Positions 6,829 through 31,873 of a stretch of 31,873 nt of DNA are shown here, piece by piece. Every line of letters starts with the position of its first letter. Position 1 is the stretch's first letter. The notes beneath the pieces were generated by a model. The model did not search any database. It worked only from the letters and a program-made list of their open reading frames with translations, and was not told where the DNA came from. The stretch is from an uncultured archaeon. Lineage in GTDB: Archaea; Asgardarchaeota; Lokiarchaeia; Sigyniarchaeales; Promethearchaeaceae. Made by a program: the position numbers and the translations under genes. The stretch is from positions 1-31,873 of the forward strand of contig CAYRPF010000034.1 in NCBI GenBank assembly GCA_964426185.1, given 5' to 3'.

Positions 6829-7947
6829 ATGAAATTAATCCTTCCGATAGCTGGAGTAGGGCAGCGATTACGCCCATTTACATTTAGTAAACCTAAAGGA
6901 TTTGTTACCATTGCAGGATCCCGTGGTGTAGATCATATCCTTACCAAAATTGGAGCCAATCTCCCTAAAGAAACACCATTATGCATGATTACAGGATATA
7001 AAAGCCTACAAATTATGCAATATATGAATAAAACATACAAGGAAAAATTCGCAATTGATTATATCGAACAGACACCAGTTGGATATCAAGCGGACATACC
7101 TTATTTCTCTGGATTGGGGCATGCAATTTTGTTAACTAAAGATTGGTTTTATAATACTTCTGATGTTGTTGTTCCAGGGCGAGAACCTGATGAAACTCTA
7201 ATATTTCTAAGTGATATGATTCCTGTACGAGATTATAAATTCATTGTAGACGCTTTAGGAAATGTGAAATATGATGGGGTAATTGGCTCCATGATTGTAC
7301 CTCCTGAAAAAACACAGTTTTATGGAATATTAGAAACTGATGAAGAAAATATCATAACCAATATGGTTGAAAAGCCAAAACAGACAAATTCTACTCAAGC
7401 GATATCGGGAGTTTATGCATTTAAAGCAAAAACAATACGGAGATTATATGAGATTTTGGATCAGCAATTCAGCCAACATGAATCTGAAATTCAGCAGGGA
7501 ATTAGACAACGAATGGAATTTCAATTTACTCCAGCCCTTCAACAGTTAGTTGAAGAAGGATTTTGCATACTCAGTGCCCCATTTTCTGATGGAATTTTAG
7601 ATTTTGGCAGACCAGAAGCATTATTAGAGAGCAATCGAATTTTATTAGAAGCCCATCAAGCCAGAGTGGAAGGTGAAATTGCCAAAATCGAAAATTCTTA
7701 TATAGAAAATCCTTGTGCGATTGGAGCAGGAACTAAAATAACTCGATCTGTAATTGGTCCATACGTCAGTATCGGGAAGAGTTGTGTGATAGAAGACTGT
7801 AATTTACAAAATGTTGTGATTGGAGACCACTGCTACCTAAAAAACATCATTACTGCAGAGTCAATTATTGGAGATGAGGTAAAAATCGATTCTGTAATAA
7901 AAAATAAGATTACTTTGGGGGATAACAGTTACTTGCTGGAATTATAG
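6829..7947 (+). CDS. Sugar-1-phosphate nucleotidyltransferase with C-terminal left-handed beta-helix
   Basis: AGVGQRLRPFTFSKPK signature, GLGHAI, VEKP, DFGRPE and hexapeptide repeats (IGPYVSIGKSCVI). Confidence 0.9.
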   Translation: MKLILPIAGVGQRLRPFTFSKPKGFVTIAGSRGVDHILTKIGANLPKETPLCMITGYKSLQIMQYMNKTYKEKFAIDYIEQTPVGYQADIPYFSGLGHAILLTKDWFYNTSDVVVPGREPDETLIFLSDMIPVRDYKFIVDALGNVKYDGVIGSMIVPPEKTQFYGILETDEENIITNMVEKPKQTNSTQAISGVYAFKAKTIRRLYEILDQQFSQHESEIQQGIRQRMEFQFTPALQQLVEEGFCILSAPFSDGILDFGRPEALLESNRILLEAHQARVEGEIAKIENSYIENPCAIGAGTKITRSVIGPYVSIGKSCVIEDCNLQNVVIGDHCYLKNIITAESIIGDEVKIDSVIKNKITLGDNSYLLEL

Positions 7948-7999
7948 CTCTTTCCCCAAAATTTTATTTATTTTCAGAGTGAATAAATTATAGAGAAAA

Positions 8000-9529
8000 A
8001 TGCCATCAAAACCTTTTACAGTTGGATTTTATACAATAAAATCTCGTGGAAAAATAGATAGTAACTATAAAACTCTCGCTCAATTATTGCAAAATAGTGG
8101 ATTTGAACCAATTAAATTTACAGAATTTCCGATATCCCGCCATAATTTAGCAACAATTGACATATTAGTCATTCCTTGCCCAGATAATCATAAATTCAAT
8201 AAAACTGAAATCCAAGCGATAAAAAGTTGGGTTGCTGAAGATGGAGGAGGAATATTTATGCTTAGTCATGCGGGAGGCGATAAAGGCCGCCGTACTAATT
8301 TATCAGAACTTTCAGAACAATTTGGGATGGTTTTTGAAAATAATCAAGTACTTGATAAATTTCATAATCAAGGTGTTGAAAATCTCCCGATTATTGAAAA
8401 TTTTTCAGTTCCCCATCCTATTAATGAAAATCTTCACAGAATTGTTTTTCGAGCAGGTTGTAGTCTTTCAACAACTGGAATTAACGTTACTCCAGTTATT
8501 TCTTCTGGTCCAAAAGCAGATCCATTTGAATCTCCTTTGATACTTGCATGTGAAGATGGAGAAGGAAGAGCGGTGGCAATAGGTTCATATGAAATGTTTC
8601 GAGATAAGATCACAGGGGGAATTAACCAAGATGACCATCGACAATTAGGTTTAAATATTTTTAATTGGTTAAAAACTACGCGTAGAGAACAAATTAAAGA
8701 GGGTATTACTCCAAATATTTCACTTTCTAATTCATTTTCCGCGGATAAAACATCTACTACGAATCCCCAAATAACACCACAATTCCCAAACGCATCAACC
8801 GATGTACAATTTCAACCTTATATTGGTGCAAAGACCTATGAATCAAATGTTAAAATTTTAGCAGGAGAAGATTTGTTAAATGCCTTTGAATCAACCTTGA
8901 ATGAATTCTTCACTTTCAAACAACGTGTTTTAGAAGACTTAAACAAATTTGAGACCAATCTCGCGTTGCTCATGAAAGCAGTGCTTGCTTCTGAAAAAGA
9001 TATAATCGCCTTCAAACAACAGCAAGCATTAGAATCAAATTCAAGTGAATCTTCAACATTTAATAAATCAACTAAATCACAAGAATCTTCATCAAAAACA
9101 ACCACAAACGATCTCAGCGGAATGACTTCAACAAGCCCTACTCCCGATGAAGTTTTTGCAGATTTGAAGAAAGATTTTATTAAAACATCTAACTCTTCCC
9201 CAGAGATTGAAACAGCAATTGAAACACCTGCAGAAGTTAAATTGCGACAGAAACCAATTAAATCAACCTTATCATCTCCCTCTGCCAAAACTTCTTTAAA
9301 ACCAGATAATGTATCGGTTCATAAAACCAAGAAAGAGCTAGAAGATGAAATTATTACTTTGGAGAATAAACTAAACAGCATCAAAAATTTAAGAGAATTC
9401 GTAGAAAAAAAATTTGCTTCGGGAAATCTATCAGAAAAGCGCTATCAAAAACAAATTAAAAAATTAGATCAAGATGTGGAAGAAACGAAGTCAAGATTAA
9501 ACGAAATTCGAGATACACTCAAAAATTGA
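8000..9529 (+). CDS. GIFT (GldG/IFT52-like) domain protein with Ser/Thr-rich linker and C-terminal coiled coil; no signal peptide
   Basis: P-x2-3-KF-x3-E-x3-IK, GGG.F, GG-x5-TNL, FG and AVAIGSYEMF.D...FNWL motifs are collinear with the IFT52 N-terminal domain as recalled; heptad-rich C-terminus. Confidence 0.75.
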   Translation: MPSKPFTVGFYTIKSRGKIDSNYKTLAQLLQNSGFEPIKFTEFPISRHNLATIDILVIPCPDNHKFNKTEIQAIKSWVAEDGGGIFMLSHAGGDKGRRTNLSELSEQFGMVFENNQVLDKFHNQGVENLPIIENFSVPHPINENLHRIVFRAGCSLSTTGINVTPVISSGPKADPFESPLILACEDGEGRAVAIGSYEMFRDKITGGINQDDHRQLGLNIFNWLKTTRREQIKEGITPNISLSNSFSADKTSTTNPQITPQFPNASTDVQFQPYIGAKTYESNVKILAGEDLLNAFESTLNEFFTFKQRVLEDLNKFETNLALLMKAVLASEKDIIAFKQQQALESNSSESSTFNKSTKSQESSSKTTTNDLSGMTSTSPTPDEVFADLKKDFIKTSNSSPEIETAIETPAEVKLRQKPIKSTLSSPSAKTSLKPDNVSVHKTKKELEDEIITLENKLNSIKNLREFVEKKFASGNLSEKRYQKQIKKLDQDVEETKSRLNEIRDTLKN

Positions 9530-9544
9530 TCCTTTTTTCAATTT

Positions 9545-9763
9545 TTATTCGATTTTATACTCTAATTTTGTAACAGAAACCCCTCTTTCCACAAAATCTT
9601 CATCCAAAAAAATTATCGCAAAATGGTTTTCGTGGGGTACAACTAATGGATAAGGCCAATAATCAGCTGTTTCGCGAAATTTAGCTTGAAAGGCATCGTC
9701 CAGATTTATAGTAATTGTTTTCTGGCAATAATAACAATAAAAGCGAACTTTTTTGGCAACCAT
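9545..9763 (-). CDS. Small protein with CxxC plus HxxH, possible Zn-binding
   Basis: FYCYYC and PHENH...LDEDFVERG; clean 72-aa ORF convergent with its neighbour. Confidence 0.75.
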   Translation of the reverse strand: MVAKKVRFYCYYCQKTITINLDDAFQAKFRETADYWPYPLVVPHENHFAIIFLDEDFVERGVSVTKLEYKIE

Positions 9764-10058: not shown

Positions 10059-12236
10059 ATGAAATCAATGAAAACCATAGCAATTGTTAGTATCTTTCTT
10101 CTCTCAATGGTTTCGGTTCCCATCACAGATTTTGTGAAAGCTAATGGGGATTCTAACTATGGAAATGAAATAGATACTCCCCAAGAAGGGAAAGAATTAG
10201 CTTTTATTTTAGGTGATATGTTTTCCACATTTCGAGAATTTGGTGCTTCGGGAGAATTATTCGCTCAGGTTTTTGAATTAATGTTCTCTAATTTTGAAAA
10301 TATGTCCAATACTGAATCAGATGTAAAGGGAATGTATGTTTTAAACGCTTCAATTATTTCAGAAAAAAGCAGCACAGAAGTTGATTACGGCGATGATGAT
10401 GTTTCAACATATTTTCCATGGCGAATATATGATTTAGAAAACGCAACTAATCCTGATGATCAAGATGAATATCCATATTTTGTTCTGGAAAGAAATGGCC
10501 AATTAGTTATTAACAAAACTGAAGGTGCTTCTCTAACCTTTATTATTTGGGATGATGATGGCTCTTTTATTAAAGCCCTTGATAATGTAATCAACACAGC
10601 AAAATCGTTTATAGAAATCGAACGTGGTGTAGAAGAAGGTACAATCACTGATCAACAGGCACAATCTCGTGCTTTATCCGCTTTGGTTGAGGCAGTGTCT
10701 TATTTCTTGATCCATATCAATGACATTATCACTGGAGATGAAGTAATTATCTTAAATATCATTGGATTTACCAACTATCAAATGTCTTTTAATGGAACTG
10801 TCGATGGAACTTGGTATATCACTGAAAACGGAGTTCCTAACAATAATCGCACCTTAGACGAAGCCTATCCTGATTGGTTCAGTGATTTTAGTCTGCTAGC
10901 CCAATTATATGACGATGAATACATGCAATATCTTTTAAATGAAGATTATAACATGACTAACAGTAATCAAGAATATACTGCATTTTCTTTCGATTTAATA
11001 GAACTATGGTTGAAAGAATTTCAAGTTTCTATCGATGCGGAGGCAATTCTCGGTGCTATTGCTGGAGAAGAAGGTCATGAATACTTCAATGATAAAACTG
11101 CTACAGATATCTTTCAAGAATTAAAATTGGAATTCTACATCTTCACCCATCACTTTCAGAATTACTATTTATTTGATGATCAAAAATTCGATTCTCCAAT
11201 TTACTCCACAGAAGACCAAGCAAAGGCAAATAATGGGGTTCCTAATGTTATCTGGGAAAATGTCACCGAATATGAAGGAGATATGATTGAGCGTATAACT
11301 GATTCTGAAATAGAATACTATTTACTACTTAAAAATGCAGCAGACTGGACTTTTATTGAACCGACTTTTAACACCGCAGAAGGATCAGTTGAATGGGGAA
11401 TACATGTTGATGATCTTGAATTTCGCGTGCTACCTGTTGGGATGCAAGATGATCAAGTGGATGAAAGCGTAGCACCTATTGAAAAAATGGATTATTTGGA
11501 ACTTGGGTTTACATTCAAACCGAATAAACGTGAAAAAGTTGATACATCAGGATTTGATTATATTAATGCAAAAGGTGAAACCACCATGGGATCTGCTAAA
11601 GTAAAACTACTCCAGTCTTTTGGATTATGGGAGCGAGATACTGATGGAAAACCCTTTACACCTGCATTAAAAACCCATGAATATCAATTATCCACAGTAT
11701 TTATGAGTACTATCTTTCATTTCAAACTCTGGATTGAAAACAAACAAATAACCGAAGGAGCAGAGCAACCCAGTCAAGCACTCCTTAATGAGAGTAACTA
11801 TAACCGAGAAACATCGAAAGTAAAGGTCGGAAATGTTGAGAAAGATCTACCTTTAGCAGAAATCGATATTGCTGGCCCAGATTATGAGAAAACCACAGCC
11901 GATGATGTCACTACTACTCATCACGCAAAAACAACCACAATTCCAGCAGCTTACGCCGAATGGGAAGGCAAAAATAGCCAAACATATGTTCAAGAAGATA
12001 ATTCCACCGCTCGGCTTAATTCTACTATAAATTTCGATTTCTCCCTTCTGGTTTATGCAGTTTCATATGATGTGTTCTCTTCATCAGGAGATGAAATTGT
12101 TCATGACCCAACCTTTTCGATCTTTATTGTTTCGGAAAATCCCGGACTTTGGGCAGTAATTTTGGTGGTAGGAAGTGTATCGTTGGTAGGAATAGCCGCT
12201 TTCTTAATTACACGCCGAAAACAATTAGCAATGTAG
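10059..12236 (+). CDS. Secreted acidic cell-surface glycoprotein with C-terminal TM anchor
   Basis: GGTGAG SD, signal peptide, many N-x-S/T sequons, IVHDPTF motif before the TM helix, basic tail RRKQ. Confidence 0.85.
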   Translation: MKSMKTIAIVSIFLLSMVSVPITDFVKANGDSNYGNEIDTPQEGKELAFILGDMFSTFREFGASGELFAQVFELMFSNFENMSNTESDVKGMYVLNASIISEKSSTEVDYGDDDVSTYFPWRIYDLENATNPDDQDEYPYFVLERNGQLVINKTEGASLTFIIWDDDGSFIKALDNVINTAKSFIEIERGVEEGTITDQQAQSRALSALVEAVSYFLIHINDIITGDEVIILNIIGFTNYQMSFNGTVDGTWYITENGVPNNNRTLDEAYPDWFSDFSLLAQLYDDEYMQYLLNEDYNMTNSNQEYTAFSFDLIELWLKEFQVSIDAEAILGAIAGEEGHEYFNDKTATDIFQELKLEFYIFTHHFQNYYLFDDQKFDSPIYSTEDQAKANNGVPNVIWENVTEYEGDMIERITDSEIEYYLLLKNAADWTFIEPTFNTAEGSVEWGIHVDDLEFRVLPVGMQDDQVDESVAPIEKMDYLELGFTFKPNKREKVDTSGFDYINAKGETTMGSAKVKLLQSFGLWERDTDGKPFTPALKTHEYQLSTVFMSTIFHFKLWIENKQITEGAEQPSQALLNESNYNRETSKVKVGNVEKDLPLAEIDIAGPDYEKTTADDVTTTHHAKTTTIPAAYAEWEGKNSQTYVQEDNSTARLNSTINFDFSLLVYAVSYDVFSSSGDEIVHDPTFSIFIVSENPGLWAVILVVGSVSLVGIAAFLITRRKQLAM

Positions 12237-29563: not shown

Positions 29564-31873
29564 TTAGACACCTCCTAATTCTTCTTCAGAAGAAACTTCT
29601 TTGCTTGATTTTCCACCTAAGATGGAAGAAGGATCAATATCCAACATTTCCCAAGCATCTCCCAACCTTTCGATGATTTCATCGCTGATAGATAATGTGA
29701 GATCCTCATCAGAAATCGGTTTATCACCGGAGATCAACTTCTTAGTGCGGTCAATCTGCTTAATAATCAATGGAATTCTCGCATAGCGAATGTATCGGGT
29801 TGTTCCCGCAATTGCCACCGCAATCAAAGCCACACTGCCTCCGATGTAGACAAAAATTTTGGGTACTCCAACATTTCCGATAGTAAATTCTGGAGGAGTT
29901 ACTGATATAGTAATATCAAAAGGTGCAATCGTGTAATTGGCTTTAGTCACAGTAATGGTGGCAGTATCGGTAATTGCAGCCACTAACGCATTATATTCTT
30001 CGGAATTGGTATCAATAACATAACGATAGACTCCCGAAGTGTTAGTTTCCGGAATTGAAATATCCTTTCCTCGGTAATGCATTGTAACAGTAGCACCAGT
30101 GAGCGGAGCATTATCGACCGGGTCGGTCAAGTTAAATTCGATTACAATTAAGTTTCCTTCCGGCGTTTCAGCCACCTTAGAAGAAATTTGATCCCCTAAT
30201 TCCACAACCACCGGTCGTTCTTTGATGATGAGTGTTATGGTAGCAGATCGGGTGACAAAGTTGGTTTTACCGATGTAAATCGCAATTAAATACGTTCCCA
30301 CCGGTTTGCTAACGGTATTAAAATCTAACCGATAAAGTCCATTATTCATGTCTGTCAGCAATCCCGAATGAGTACCTGAATCATCTTCCCATTCATAGTA
30401 TTTAGTATTTGCCCCAGTAATTGCTGTTGTATCCACTTCATTATAGGAAATATAGAAGAAATGGCTGGTACTGACATTAATCTCCACATCTTCCCTTAGG
30501 AAAATCGTGTTGTTGATCCGAGTCTGCACCGGTAAAATTACAAGATAGAAGGTAATCGTTTGAGATATGTATTGATATTTCTCAGCTGTGACATAAATAG
30601 TGTAGCTACCCACACCCAAGAAATCAGTAGAATTCAAAGTTATGGTATATTGACCAGTTGTAACATGTGATAATGTTCCTTCTAAGCCAGCCTGCTGTCC
30701 TACCGTAAATGAAACTAAACCATCGGTAATTCCTAGTGTACGATAGGTGTCTGTAAACTGGACTGATAGGTCCAGAGTATCCCGCCAATTGATAGTATAG
30801 TTGGTCTGAGTGGTGGAGAAACTGGTAGGTATCACCAAAACTTGAATGGTCAATACCAACTGCTGGGTTTCATACTGATTCTTCGTGGCAGAAATTCTGA
30901 AATTATAGGTACCGGCTTGACCGAAATCAAGCGACTTCAGATCAAAGGTATATAATCCATTGTTTTGACTGGTAAGATAGCCGGAAGATACCGCCAGAGA
31001 AGCAGAATAGTAGGAAAGCGTTGCAGTTCCGATTCCCACTGGAGAACCAATGATATTTTCGAACGAAACGGTCAGGTTTATTGTTTCTTCCCAATAAAGT
31101 GTAATCGTATCATTTGTATAATCCGAAGTAAGCTGGGTGGGAATCTTCAAAATGGTTACCGTTATCACCAAGGTTCGGGAAGCATATTGGGGTTTAGATG
31201 CCGAAACTTCAAAGGTATAGGTGCCGGCTTGGCCGAAATTTAACGATTCTTGAGGTAATACATATGTACCGTTGTTTAAATTGCTGAAAACTCCAGAATC
31301 TGAATAATCCCCGGTACCGCTAACCACATAACTGATAATGGCACCTGAATCTATGGCTACAGGATTTTGCGAATCGTAAACATCGAAATAATCCACCGCT
31401 AATGTGAAATTCATTTCCCAGTAAATAGTAACTTTGGATGCATTTGAGGTAAAATTAACCGGTCGGATACCTATATCGATATTGATTACCAGAGATTGAG
31501 TCTCATACTGATTTTTAGTGGCGGTGATTACAAATGAATAGGTTCCATTCGTGCCAAAATAGGTAGTGTTGAATTCAATAACATAGGCATCGCTTGTGAT
31601 CGAATTTTCAATAGATCCACTATATTCAGGGTGTCCAGTAACCGTATACGTAACCGAACCATCCGTGATGTTGAGCCCGTTATCTTCATCGAAATAAACC
31701 ACCGATATCGAAAAGTTGTCATTCCATGCCACTGAAATCGTATCACTCGATGTTGTCAATGTAGTGTTAATTACTGCAATATTAACCGAAATTGAAATAG
31801 TCTGAGTCTGATACTGGCTTAGTTGGGCAGTTATTAGATATGTATAGGTTCCAGCTACAAATTGGCCACCTTC
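29564..31873 (-). CDS. C-terminal part of a giant Ig-like-repeat surface protein with one TM helix and an approximately 75-aa cytoplasmic tail (5'-truncated by the window)
   Basis: Frame is open to 31873 (EGGQFVAGTYTYLITA...); about 100-aa repeats ending GTY.F...A.K.QY.TQ; sequon-rich; TM IFVYIGGSVALIAVAIAG followed by RYIRYARIP. Confidence 0.9.
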   Translation of the reverse strand, partial: EGGQFVAGTYTYLITAQLSQYQTQTISISVNIAVINTTLTTSSDTISVAWNDNFSISVVYFDEDNGLNITDGSVTYTVTGHPEYSGSIENSITSDAYVIEFNTTYFGTNGTYSFVITATKNQYETQSLVINIDIGIRPVNFTSNASKVTIYWEMNFTLAVDYFDVYDSQNPVAIDSGAIISYVVSGTGDYSDSGVFSNLNNGTYVLPQESLNFGQAGTYTFEVSASKPQYASRTLVITVTILKIPTQLTSDYTNDTITLYWEETINLTVSFENIIGSPVGIGTATLSYYSASLAVSSGYLTSQNNGLYTFDLKSLDFGQAGTYNFRISATKNQYETQQLVLTIQVLVIPTSFSTTQTNYTINWRDTLDLSVQFTDTYRTLGITDGLVSFTVGQQAGLEGTLSHVTTGQYTITLNSTDFLGVGSYTIYVTAEKYQYISQTITFYLVILPVQTRINNTIFLREDVEINVSTSHFFYISYNEVDTTAITGANTKYYEWEDDSGTHSGLLTDMNNGLYRLDFNTVSKPVGTYLIAIYIGKTNFVTRSATITLIIKERPVVVELGDQISSKVAETPEGNLIVIEFNLTDPVDNAPLTGATVTMHYRGKDISIPETNTSGVYRYVIDTNSEEYNALVAAITDTATITVTKANYTIAPFDITISVTPPEFTIGNVGVPKIFVYIGGSVALIAVAIAGTTRYIRYARIPLIIKQIDRTKKLISGDKPISDEDLTLSISDEIIERLGDAWEMLDIDPSSILGGKSSKEVSSEEELGGV

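What the first reader, a model, noticed from the sequence alone, without database searches (positions are those of the whole stretch)
8000..9529. Cytoplasmic IFT52-like GIFT protein with a scaffold-type C-terminus
Seen: aa 1-225 follow the IFT52 N-terminal domain motif order (YK.L, P..KF...E...IK, GG.F, GG.....TN, G..L, V.S.G...P...P, AV.GS..MF.D, F.WL). There is no signal peptide or TM helix. A helical segment, a disordered S/T linker and a coiled coil follow. Known: prokaryotic GldG-type GIFT domains are typically extracytoplasmic and ABC-associated, while IFT52 is a cytosolic IFT-B core scaffold. Inference: candidate archaeal relative of a ciliary transport component. The IFT52 comparison is from memory.
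Basis: partly seen in the sequence, partly recalled or inferred. Interest (0 to 1): 0.75.

Follow-up and report, generated by a model that had tools for sequence, protein, structure and literature searches.

The report
Asgard IFT52-like GIFT adaptor protein
This Lokiarchaeial gene encodes a soluble protein whose front domain is a true relative of the head of the cilium-building protein IFT52, but the rest of it is unrelated to IFT52: it ends in a small helical hairpin of the kind that holds the ESCRT-I sorting complex together and sits next to a sugar-activating enzyme, so it is an undescribed adaptor and not an archaeal IFT52.

Summary
Residues 1-235 are a genuine IFT52-type GIFT domain: Pfam PF23355 scores 54 bits (cut-off 27), phmmer hits IFT52 crystal structures, and the AF2 model's best PDB matches are IFT52N (TM 0.80-0.87). 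Profile-profile probability against 59 eukaryotic IFT52 domains is 99.8%.

Nothing after residue 235 resembles IFT52 (hhalign probability 0.1%). No IFT52-central, IFT52-C or IFT46 family was found in the genome, and the IFT-B2-binding residues are not kept. IFT52's position relative to the Asgard subfamilies is unresolved: the tree puts it outside all of them, but an AU test does not reject a sister position (p 0.46). Look-alike GIFT domains also occur in bacteria (a lead only).

Two further results. The conserved C-terminal hairpin (444-508) links by profile to the tail of the Asgard Znr_PH_CC_SB family, which matches the yeast Vps23 steadiness box. An apparently active sugar-1-phosphate nucleotidyltransferase gene lies directly upstream in 36 of the 39 orthologous loci with enough flank.

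The scan has met this family before on other DNA (159 notes, at least 96 genomes). I found no paper describing it. Function is untested.

The parts
8000..9529 (+). Gene for the 509-aa soluble GIFT - linker - helix - linker - hairpin protein (P0001)
   Evidence: ORF. More than 186 homologues, nearly all Promethearchaeota/Asgard. No TM helix or signal peptide.
8000..8704 (+). IFT52-type GIFT domain (aa 1-235), glutamine-amidotransferase-like alpha/beta fold
   Evidence: PF23355 54.4 bits against cut-off 27.2. IFT52 PDB chains by phmmer. pLDDT above 90. Foldseek top hits 5fmr/5fms with TM 0.80-0.87. hhalign 99.8% over 209 columns against eukaryotic IFT52.
8705..8866 (+). Disordered S/T/N/P/Q-rich linker 1 (aa 236-289)
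   Evidence: pLDDT below 50 for 243-276. 56% S+T+N+P+Q. Column identity about 0.2 in the family alignment.
8867..9043 (+). Long single helix (aa 290-348), moderately conserved; possible stalk
   Evidence: DSSP helix 290-348 with pLDDT 63-91. Column identity 0.33-0.46.
9044..9328 (+). Disordered S/T-rich linker 2 (aa 349-443) with a short helix at 382-394
   Evidence: pLDDT below 50 for 351-378 and 393-439. Gappy and poorly conserved.
9329..9523 (+). Conserved C-terminal helical hairpin (aa 444-508) of steadiness-box/CdvA type
   Evidence: Gap-free and about 60% column identity. pLDDT 92-98. hhalign to Znr_PH_CC_SB tails 89% (score 34.6 against shuffled 10.3+-2.2) and to a third hairpin family 96%. 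The Znr_PH_CC_SB tails hit the yeast Vps23 steadiness box at E 1.5e-6.
6829..7947 (+). Conserved upstream partner gene: sugar-1-phosphate nucleotidyltransferase with a left-handed beta-helix C-domain (372 aa)
   Evidence: PF00483 plus LbH hits; rmlA_long-like but far below equivalog cut-offs. Directly upstream on the same strand in 36 of 42 orthologous loci. Catalytic GxGxR..PxT..PK and EKP motifs kept in at least 95% of 117 orthologues.
7962..7974 (+). TATA-like T/A-rich element in the 52-nt spacer, about 30 nt before the ATG (possible own promoter, short or no leader)
   Evidence: Read directly from the sequence. Inference only; no experimental support.

Best explanation
The gene encodes a soluble, most likely non-catalytic, modular adaptor of an Asgard-wide family. 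Shown: the N-terminal 235 residues are a GIFT domain homologous along its whole length to the IFT52 N-terminal domain. The rest is two disordered linkers, one long helix and a conserved 65-residue helical hairpin. The hairpin is a portable module also found at the C-terminus of two other Asgard protein families, one of which (Znr_PH_CC_SB) matches the ESCRT-I steadiness box. The gene is chromosomally linked across distant Asgard lineages to a sugar-1-phosphate nucleotidyltransferase that keeps its catalytic motifs. Inferred: the GIFT head is a binding module. About 15 polar residues are invariant in the orthogroup (R16, C60, D62, H90, D94, R97, E113, Q116, D119, R151, C154, Y197, E198, R201, H213). 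Most lie just after beta-strands, where enzymes of this fold have their active site. Several of these positions are also conserved in IFT52 but with a different residue, so I read them as a specificity-determining surface. Also inferred: the hairpin bundles with like hairpins, its own or those of other hairpin-tailed proteins such as Vps28 and Znr_PH_CC_SB. This would tether the GIFT head, on long flexible linkers, to a larger assembly. The ligand could be the neighbouring enzyme or something made from its product. It shares one domain with IFT52 and is not an archaeal IFT52.
For: GIFT homology. Soluble. Architecture. Family is Asgard-wide: PF23355 in 196 of 201 genomes of the phylum, and the hairpin profile in 66 of 121 genomes, always at the end of GIFT ORFs of about 395-510 aa. 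Hairpin links: A2 vs A3 89% (score 34.6; 100 column shuffles mean 10.3, max 17.2), 85% with the 86-sequence alignment, A2 vs A4 96% and A4 vs A3 96%, A3 vs yeast Vps23 SB E 1.5e-6. The comparator in this genome has Zn-ribbon, PH/GRAM and Vps23_core-like parts, as described in PMC10936438. Vps28 is encoded in this genome. NTase adjacency holds in 36 of 39 loci with flank, at GIFT identities down to 33%, and its catalytic motifs are conserved. Invariant polar residues and their IFT52 counterparts. IFT52N is reported to lack catalytic residues and to act through a conserved surface patch (PMC4818760).
Against: No binding partner or ligand has been tested. I could not obtain model coordinates, so the clustering of the invariant residues into one pocket is inferred from secondary-structure positions only. 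The hairpin profile alone does not reach ESCRT-I chains in the PDB. The merged profile gives only marginal Vps28 hits among coiled-coil noise (E about 0.015). No member reaches the Pfam Vps23_core cut-off, and Foldseek on the hairpin is non-discriminating. The intergenic gaps to the enzyme gene (43-331 nt, median about 135) suggest separate promoters, not a tight operon. One subclade lacks the pairing. Two invariant cysteines, two histidines and acidic residues could instead form a metal or catalytic site.
Confidence: 0.55

Rival explanations
1. It is the archaeal forerunner of IFT52 in the functional sense: a cytosolic scaffold whose linkers are gripped by TPR proteins and whose C-terminus pairs with a partner. 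This would make it an IFT-B-core-like assembly before cilia existed.
For: IFT52N is the closest solved fold and the best Pfam family. The overall layout (GIFT head, flexible middle, small C-terminal pairing module) parallels IFT52. An AU test does not reject IFT52 as sister of this orthogroup (p 0.46). TPR proteins are encoded in the window.
Against: The post-GIFT region shows no similarity to the IFT52 post-GIFT region (hhalign probability 0.1%, E 0.55). PF23352, PF21178 and IFT46 (PF12317) were not found in the genome. R204 aligns to a variable position and the K130 loop is not conserved. Other Asgard GIFT subfamilies score as high or higher against IFT52. The free tree puts IFT52 outside the whole Asgard group. 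The TPR genes are not conserved neighbours.
Confidence: 0.1
2. The GIFT domain is an enzyme or a small-molecule or metal-binding regulatory subunit. It would work with the neighbouring nucleotidyltransferase on a sugar nucleotide, and the tail would only oligomerise it.
For: The fold is that of class-I glutamine amidotransferases and ThuA-like proteins. About 15 polar residues are invariant in 86 orthologues, including C60, C154, H90, H213, D62, D94 and E198. The gene pairs with an apparently active NDP-sugar pyrophosphorylase across Asgard lineages.
Against: The nucleophile-elbow position after strand 84-88 reads S-H-A-G-G, so the amidotransferase cysteine is absent. C154 lies at the start of a strand, not at an elbow. 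No enzyme family matched by sequence. IFT52N is reported as non-catalytic and not sugar-binding (PMC4818760). No NTase-GIFT fusion was seen among 186 homologues of 279-891 aa.
Confidence: 0.15
3. The C-terminal hairpin is only a generic antiparallel coiled coil for self-association. Its similarity to steadiness boxes would be convergent, and the protein has nothing to do with ESCRT.
For: Foldseek ranks serine-integrase, seryl-tRNA-synthetase and MexA hairpins as high as ESCRT-I chains, none significantly. Pfam hits are a mix of sub-threshold coiled-coil families. There is no direct PDB hit to ESCRT-I. The gene is not next to ESCRT genes.
Against: The profile-profile similarity is order-specific and spans the full hairpin including the turn (34.6 against shuffled max 17.2, reversed 14.7). 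It recurs with a second family at 96%. One linked family hits Vps23 SB at E 1.5e-6, and 12 of 33 tails give sub-threshold Vps23_core hits.
Confidence: 0.2

Closest known systems
IFT52 (OSM-6/BLD1), N-terminal GIFT domain; core subunit of intraflagellar-transport complex IFT-B1 (PDB 5FMR, 5FMS, 8BD7 chain B; Pfam PF23355)
   Same: The whole 235-residue domain is the same: same fold (TM 0.80-0.87), 18-25% identity, and about 25 shared conserved core positions (F10, L30, P61, E70, G82-G83, G92-G93-[DE]94, N100, G109, G153, P175, G189, G195-S196, F200, W223-L224). Both are cytosolic and lack the amidotransferase nucleophile.
   Different: There is no IFT52 central (IFT70/IFT88-binding) domain and no C-terminal (IFT46-binding) domain. 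The IFT-B2 contact residues are not kept. Residues conserved in each family differ at the same positions (D119/R, N128/K, R151/P, E113/N, H213/N). The tail and the genomic partners are different.
Asgard Znr_PH_CC_SB family (asCOG cog.011556; Makarova et al. 2024, PMC10936438), proposed ESCRT-I component
   Same: It has a C-terminal helical hairpin of the same profile family (hhalign 85-89%) placed after a long, partly coiled and disordered region. It is Asgard-specific. A copy is present in this genome on contig C133.
   Different: Its head is Zn-ribbons plus a PH/GRAM domain instead of GIFT. Its hairpin reaches Vps23 in the PDB directly (E 1.5e-6), whereas this protein's hairpin does so only through that family.
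Vps23/TSG101 (ESCRT-I), steadiness box; and crenarchaeal CdvA hairpin
   Same: The layout is head domain - Pro/Ser-rich linker - long helix - terminal hairpin. The hairpin model superposes on ESCRT-I headpiece chains (TM about 0.78) and on S. islandicus CdvA (TM 0.85, rmsd 0.6 A), and there are sub-threshold Pfam Vps23_core and CdvA hits.
   Different: The head is GIFT, not UEV. About 95 disordered residues separate the long helix from the hairpin, whereas the ESCRT-I stalk runs into the headpiece. No match reaches a curated threshold.
OST48/DDOST/Wbp1 luminal domain, GldG (PF09822 ABC_transp_aux), DUF4350, and the Salmonella cytoplasmic proteins STM3548/STM1381 (PDB 2GK3, 3SOZ)
   Same: They share the GIFT/amidotransferase-like fold (Foldseek E 5e-9 to 1e-7). 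51 of 86 orthologues also give weaker PF09822 hits.
   Different: These rank below IFT52 in both sequence and structure. GldG and OST48 are membrane-anchored and extracytoplasmic, whereas this protein is soluble, has no ABC-transporter neighbours and carries a hairpin tail.

Membership tests
IFT52 (IFT-B1 core subunit) | N-terminal GIFT domain matching PF23355 / the IFT52N structure | tested here: met
   54.4 bits against cut-off 27.2. phmmer to 5fmr_A E 7.8e-11. Foldseek TM 0.80-0.87. hhalign 99.8%.
IFT52 (IFT-B1 core subunit) | Central segment that binds IFT70/IFT88 (PF23352 IFT52_central) | tested here: not met
   No hit in P0001 at E<=10. No hit in the genome (the controls were also silent). 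Post-GIFT profile against 67 eukaryotic IFT52 post-GIFT regions: probability 0.1%.
IFT52 (IFT-B1 core subunit) | C-terminal domain that pairs with IFT46 (PF21178 Itf52_C) | tested here: not met
   No hit. Hairpin against IFT52 post-GIFT: probability 0.2%.
IFT52 (IFT-B1 core subunit) | Conserved IFT-B2-binding patch (CrIFT52 K130, R204; PMC4818760) | tested here: not met
   R204 aligns to position 178, which varies in the orthogroup. K130 falls in an insertion (HMMER) or opposite invariant N128 (MAFFT).
IFT52 (IFT-B1 core subunit) | Partner subunits in the same genome (IFT46 tested) | tested here: inconclusive
   PF12317 was not found in a 92%-complete genome, but the control genomes were silent too. 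IFT70, IFT88, IFT81 and IFT74 were not searched.
IFT52 (IFT-B1 core subunit) | Specific sister-group relation to eukaryotic IFT52 in a GIFT tree | tested here: inconclusive
   The free tree has an IFT52 clade (SH-aLRT 91) outside all Asgard soluble GIFT proteins (83). The constraint IFT52+orthogroup is not rejected (dlnL 3.4, p-AU 0.46). The tree holds no non-Asgard prokaryotes.
GldG / ABC_transp_aux (PF09822) type GIFT proteins | Membrane-anchored, extracytoplasmic, encoded with ABC-transporter genes | tested here: not met
   No TM helix or signal peptide. No ABC genes nearby here or in 42 orthologous loci. P0001 has no PF09822 hit at E<=10.
Class-I glutamine amidotransferases | Cys nucleophile at the elbow after the central strand, plus His/Glu | tested here: inconclusive
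   The elbow after strand 84-88 reads S89-H-A-G-G93, with no Cys. This assignment rests on secondary structure and alignment, not on coordinates. IFT52N is reported to lack catalytic residues.
ESCRT-I steadiness box (Vps23_core PF09454 and relatives) | C-terminal helical hairpin of about 65 residues | tested here: met
   Helices 444-473 and 479-508 with pLDDT 92-98. TM about 0.78 to 6vme headpiece chains, though not significant.
ESCRT-I steadiness box (Vps23_core PF09454 and relatives) | Sequence match to a curated SB model or a solved SB | tested here: inconclusive
   Direct tests: no Pfam hit over the cut-off (12 of 33 tails sub-threshold), no PDB hit, marginal Vps28 hits (E about 0.015). 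Transitive tests: 85-89% to Znr_PH_CC_SB tails, which hit Vps23 SB at 1.5e-6, and 96%/96% through a third family.
ESCRT-I steadiness box (Vps23_core PF09454 and relatives) | Assembles with Vps28/Vps23/Vps37-type hairpins into a headpiece | not testable with these tools
   Multimer prediction and biochemistry were not available. Vps28 is encoded in this genome; UEV was not detected.

The most novel reading that the evidence does not exclude
GIFT-stalk-hairpin proteins are alternative subunits or adaptors of an Asgard ESCRT-I-like assembly. Interchangeable heads (GIFT, Zn-ribbon/PH, an unknown helical head) would be plugged into a common steadiness-box bundle with Vps28. The GIFT head would couple a sugar-nucleotide or glycan-related client to membrane remodelling, and eukaryotic IFT52 would descend from this soluble Asgard GIFT lineage after swapping its tail for IFT46/70/88-binding modules.
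Probability: 0.12. Interest if true: 0.85.

Novelty: new variant of a known kind. Interest (0 to 1): 0.55.

Why it matters
IFT52 is the backbone of the IFT-B core, and where its domains came from is open. This family shows that a soluble, cytosolic IFT52-type GIFT domain was already widespread in the archaeal lineage closest to eukaryotes. The present data cannot say whether IFT52 came from it. Independently, a portable hairpin shared with a proposed Asgard ESCRT-I component appears on three different head domains. That suggests Asgard ESCRT-I-like assemblies may be more combinatorial than the eukaryotic complex, which is directly testable by co-expression. The conserved pairing with a sugar-nucleotide enzyme gives a first experimental handle on function.

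Tried and rejected
- **Direct hairpin-to-ESCRT-I match.** The PDB profile search with GIFT tails alone gave only designed repeat proteins and coiled-coil noise. Foldseek on the hairpin model gave nothing below E 0.08.
- **Outgroups for the tree.** tblastn of the GIFT domain and of the IFT52 GIFT domain against 72,556 plasmids found nothing. The genome-contig scan returned only Asgard loci because its patterns were orthogroup motifs. The representative-library search with IFT52's GIFT domain listed only IFT52-grade hits (all 150 below 1e-32), so the prokaryotic tail (about 1,540 representatives) could not be inspected.
- **Swapped gene order in three loci.** The downstream ORF of similar size in L006, L011 and L019 is an isocitrate/isopropylmalate dehydrogenase, not the enzyme.
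- **L045 as a hairpin on a new head.** It is a 5'-truncated remnant of an orthologue.
- **Catalytic Cys-His-Glu triad from C154/H213/E198.** I could not support this idea: C154 is not at the nucleophile elbow.
- **Circular-shift controls for hhalign.** These were uninformative because local alignment recovers the unshifted part.
- **Third hairpin family.** It was not found in this genome with one full-length query.
- **Model coordinates.** None were available to scripts, so residue clustering was not measured.
Full report
**Observation.** The window is from a Lokiarchaeial (Promethearchaeota) genome of 3.26 Mb, 92% complete. The neighbouring enzyme's closest named relative (84% identity) is from Candidatus Harpocratesius. 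ORF 8000-9529 (+) encodes 509 residues. It has no hydrophobic N-terminus, and its highest 19-residue hydropathy mean is 1.1, so it is soluble. An AlphaFold2 model built on 86 homologues is confident for residues 1-235 (pLDDT above 90) and for a C-terminal hairpin at 444-473/479-508 (pLDDT 92-98). It shows a long helix at 290-348 and three disordered S/T/N/P/Q-rich stretches.

**The head is a true IFT52-type GIFT domain.**
- Pfam PF23355 (IFT52_GIFT) is the only family above threshold: 54.4 bits against a cut-off of 27.2. PF09822 (GldG type) and DUF4350 do not appear even at E<=10.
- Plain phmmer against all PDB sequences finds only IFT52 chains for this domain: 5fmr_A at 7.8e-11, 8bd7_B, and 5fms_A.
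- Foldseek ranks Chlamydomonas and mouse IFT52N first (E 3.5e-16 to 5.6e-14, TM 0.80-0.87). OST48, the Salmonella cytoplasmic proteins STM3548 and STM1381, ThuA-like proteins, GH42 domains and amidotransferases follow.
- I seeded a search with a 76-residue piece of CrIFT52 exactly as a tool had printed it, and so obtained eukaryotic IFT52 sequences. A profile of the Asgard domain aligns to a profile of 59 eukaryotic IFT52 domains with probability 99.8%, E 5.8e-29, over 209 columns.

**It is not an IFT52 beyond that domain.**
- The region after residue 235 shows no similarity to the post-GIFT region of 67 eukaryotic IFT52s (probability 0.1%, E 0.55).
- IFT52_central, Itf52_C and IFT46_B_C give no match in the genome, although the control genomes were silent too.
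- Taschner et al. (PMC4818760) showed that IFT52N lacks catalytic residues and contacts IFT-B2 through a patch including K130 and R204. Here R204 aligns to a variable position (178), and the K130 loop has no conserved counterpart.

**A residue table clarifies what is shared.** About 25 of the 56 positions conserved in the orthogroup are shared with IFT52. These are mostly Gly, Pro and hydrophobic core residues, plus E70, [DE]94 and N100. A second set is invariant in each family but different between them: D119 vs R (92%), N128 vs K (97%), R151 vs P (97%), E113 vs N (86%), H213 vs N (100%), A91 vs E (85%). The orthogroup also fixes R16, C60, D62, H90, R97, Q116, C154, Y197, E198 and R201. Most of these follow beta-strands, where enzymes of this fold place their active site. 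However, the nucleophile-elbow position reads S-H-A-G-G. I therefore infer a binding surface with family-specific specificity and not an amidotransferase. I could not measure spatial clustering because no coordinates were available.

**Relationship to IFT52 is unresolved.**
- The genome has two further GIFT paralogues: a 498-aa soluble one on C91, and a domain in a 1787-aa frame on C14. The C91 paralogue is as similar to IFT52 as P0001 (42 vs 44 bits).
- PF23355 matches occur in 196 of 201 sampled genomes of the phylum, with 1-11 matches per genome.
- Using IFT52's GIFT domain as query against 1.84 billion representatives gives 1714 hits at E<=1e-3, 711 at <=1e-10 and 170 at <=1e-30. On that scale P0001 scores 1.7e-7 and its orthogroup 28-61 bits, while a 402-aa Asgard protein reaches 66 bits.
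- A 94-row maximum-likelihood tree (quick search, LG+C20) recovers eukaryotic IFT52 as one clade (SH-aLRT 91). All soluble Asgard GIFT proteins lie on the other side (83), with P0001's group nested several nodes deep.
- An AU test does not reject forcing IFT52 together with the orthogroup (delta lnL 3.4, p 0.46).
- The tree contains no non-Asgard prokaryotes, because I could not retrieve any. ESM-Atlas neighbours of both domains include clusters from Aquificota, Thermodesulfobacteriota, Bacteroidota (PF23355 in 97% of members), Actinomycetota, Thermoplasmatota and others. These are leads only, but they argue against an Asgard-exclusive link.

**The tail is a steadiness-box-type hairpin.**
- The last 70 residues are gap-free and about 60% conserved.
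- Individually, tails give only sub-threshold Pfam hits: KxDL 22 of 33, Vps23_core 12 of 33, CdvA 8 of 33. The tail profile does not reach ESCRT-I in the PDB.
- Following a lead from earlier notes of this scan and Makarova et al. 2024 (PMC10936438), I collected the C-terminal tails of seven proteins that weakly match Vps23_core in this genome and relatives.
- The one in this genome (776 aa, contig C133) has Zn-ribbon, PH/GRAM and Vps23_core-like parts, which is the published Znr_PH_CC_SB architecture. The profile of these tails hits the yeast Vps23 steadiness box (2p22_A at 1.5e-6, 2f66_A, 2caz_A) and TSG101 (0.021).
- hhalign between the GIFT tails and these tails gives 89% (E 2.2e-6, 63 columns). 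The score is 34.6, against 10.3+-2.2 (max 17.2) for 100 column shuffles and 14.7 for the reversed profile. With the 86-sequence alignment it gives 85%.
- Scanning the phylum with the hairpin profile finds it in 66 of 121 genomes. It always lies at the end of GIFT ORFs, including the 395-420-aa forms of other classes.
- The same scan finds it, more weakly, in a third family of 423-592 aa with an unassigned head. That family's tail links to the GIFT tails at 96% and to Znr_PH_CC_SB tails at 96%. It gives marginal hits to the Vps28 headpiece hairpin (E 0.02-0.04; also 0.014-0.03 in a merged profile).
- Vps28 is encoded in this genome.
- I conclude that the hairpin is a portable module of the steadiness-box/CdvA class (moderate confidence). 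Whether it joins an ESCRT-I-like bundle is untested.

**Gene neighbourhood.**
- In 42 orthologous loci from species genomes, all Promethearchaeota, a 360-400-aa nucleotidyltransferase/LbH gene lies directly upstream on the same strand in 36. Of the six exceptions, two lack flank, one is a truncated remnant, and three belong to one subclade with other neighbours.
- The enzyme family is likewise Asgard-wide. It resembles long RmlA and archaeal GlmU-type enzymes, but far below equivalog cut-offs. It keeps the GxGxR..PxT..PK, D129, E-K-P and D258 signatures in at least 95% of 117 orthologues, so it is probably active on an unknown sugar-1-phosphate.
- In most lineages the pair is preceded, co-directionally, by a GPN-loop GTPase and two unassigned genes (32, 24 and 21 of 42 loci). 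This window lacks those.
- Gaps between enzyme and GIFT genes are 43-331 nt, and the 52-nt spacer here holds a TATA-like element. Co-transcription is therefore uncertain, but the conserved adjacency at 33% protein identity argues for a functional link.

**Novelty and earlier work.** I found no paper containing both Asgard and IFT52, and none linking GIFT domains to Asgard lineages. Databases carry only automatic names such as 'IFT52 GIFT domain-containing protein'. This scan has reported the family before on other DNA (159 notes in at least 96 genomes), including the steadiness-box idea. I re-tested those points here.

**Limits.** Function is inferred, not shown. The tree lacks bacterial sequences and used a quick search. 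The steadiness-box link is transitive. The invariant-pocket idea lacks coordinates.

Noticed in passing
Loci L007-L044 (e.g. L007:2661-7362): In most Asgard lineages the enzyme-GIFT pair is the end of a co-directional five-gene array: an unassigned ~128-aa gene, an unassigned ~324-aa gene, a GPN-loop GTPase (PF03029), the nucleotidyltransferase, then the GIFT gene. These occur in 21, 24, 32, 36 and 41 of 42 loci. This window lacks the first three.
   Followed up: partly
L076-L081 (e.g. L076:1892-3505, minus strand): A third Asgard family (423-592 aa, head without any Pfam match) ends in the same type of hairpin. hhalign gives 96% to the GIFT tails and 96% to Znr_PH_CC_SB tails, and the tail gives marginal PDB hits to the Vps28 headpiece hairpin. 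It was not found in this genome with one query.
   Followed up: partly
G000 contig C133, L053:1376-3706 (+): This genome encodes a 776-aa protein with Zn-ribbons, a PH/GRAM domain and a Vps23_core-like tail. This is the Znr_PH_CC_SB architecture proposed as an Asgard ESCRT-I component.
   Followed up: partly
G000 contigs C91 (L001:1354-2850) and C14 (L003): There are two further GIFT paralogues in the genome. One is a 498-aa soluble protein beside a TYW2/Trm5-type methyltransferase; it matches PF09822 slightly better than PF23355 yet hits IFT52 structures as well as P0001 does. The other is a GIFT/DUF4350 domain inside a 1787-aa frame that also has a CARDB domain.
   Followed up: partly
L005:5179-6342 and L006:7283-7828: A Gtr1/RagA-like GTPase is inserted between the enzyme and GIFT genes in a Promethearchaeum genome. 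A Ras-family GTPase lies divergently upstream in a Sigynarchaeum-like genome.
   Followed up: no
L045:7122-8210: A 5'-truncated remnant of an orthologue: it keeps the GSYEIFRD motif, the linkers and the hairpin but has lost most of the GIFT domain.
   Followed up: partly
window 9545-9763 (-): A 72-aa ORF with a CYYC motif lies convergent to the GIFT gene. It is conserved only in the closest relatives (L004, L005) and weakly in L042, and has no family match.
   Followed up: no
window 10059-12236 (+): A 725-aa protein with an N-terminal signal-like segment and a C-terminal TM anchor has no Pfam or NCBIfam match. It is conserved next to the GIFT gene only in L005.
   Followed up: no
Proteins P0121-P0143 (eukaryotic IFT52): Eukaryotic IFT52 proteins themselves carry precomputed PF09822, PF03345 (OST48_N) and sometimes PF14258 hits. 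Overlapping GldG, DUF4350 or OST48 hits on an archaeal GIFT protein therefore do not argue against IFT52 likeness.
   Followed up: no
window 29564-31759 (-): A large protein has a sub-threshold-to-weak Ribophorin II second-domain match (30.5 bits against cut-off 23.4). This is a eukaryote-type oligosaccharyltransferase-associated signature.
   Followed up: no
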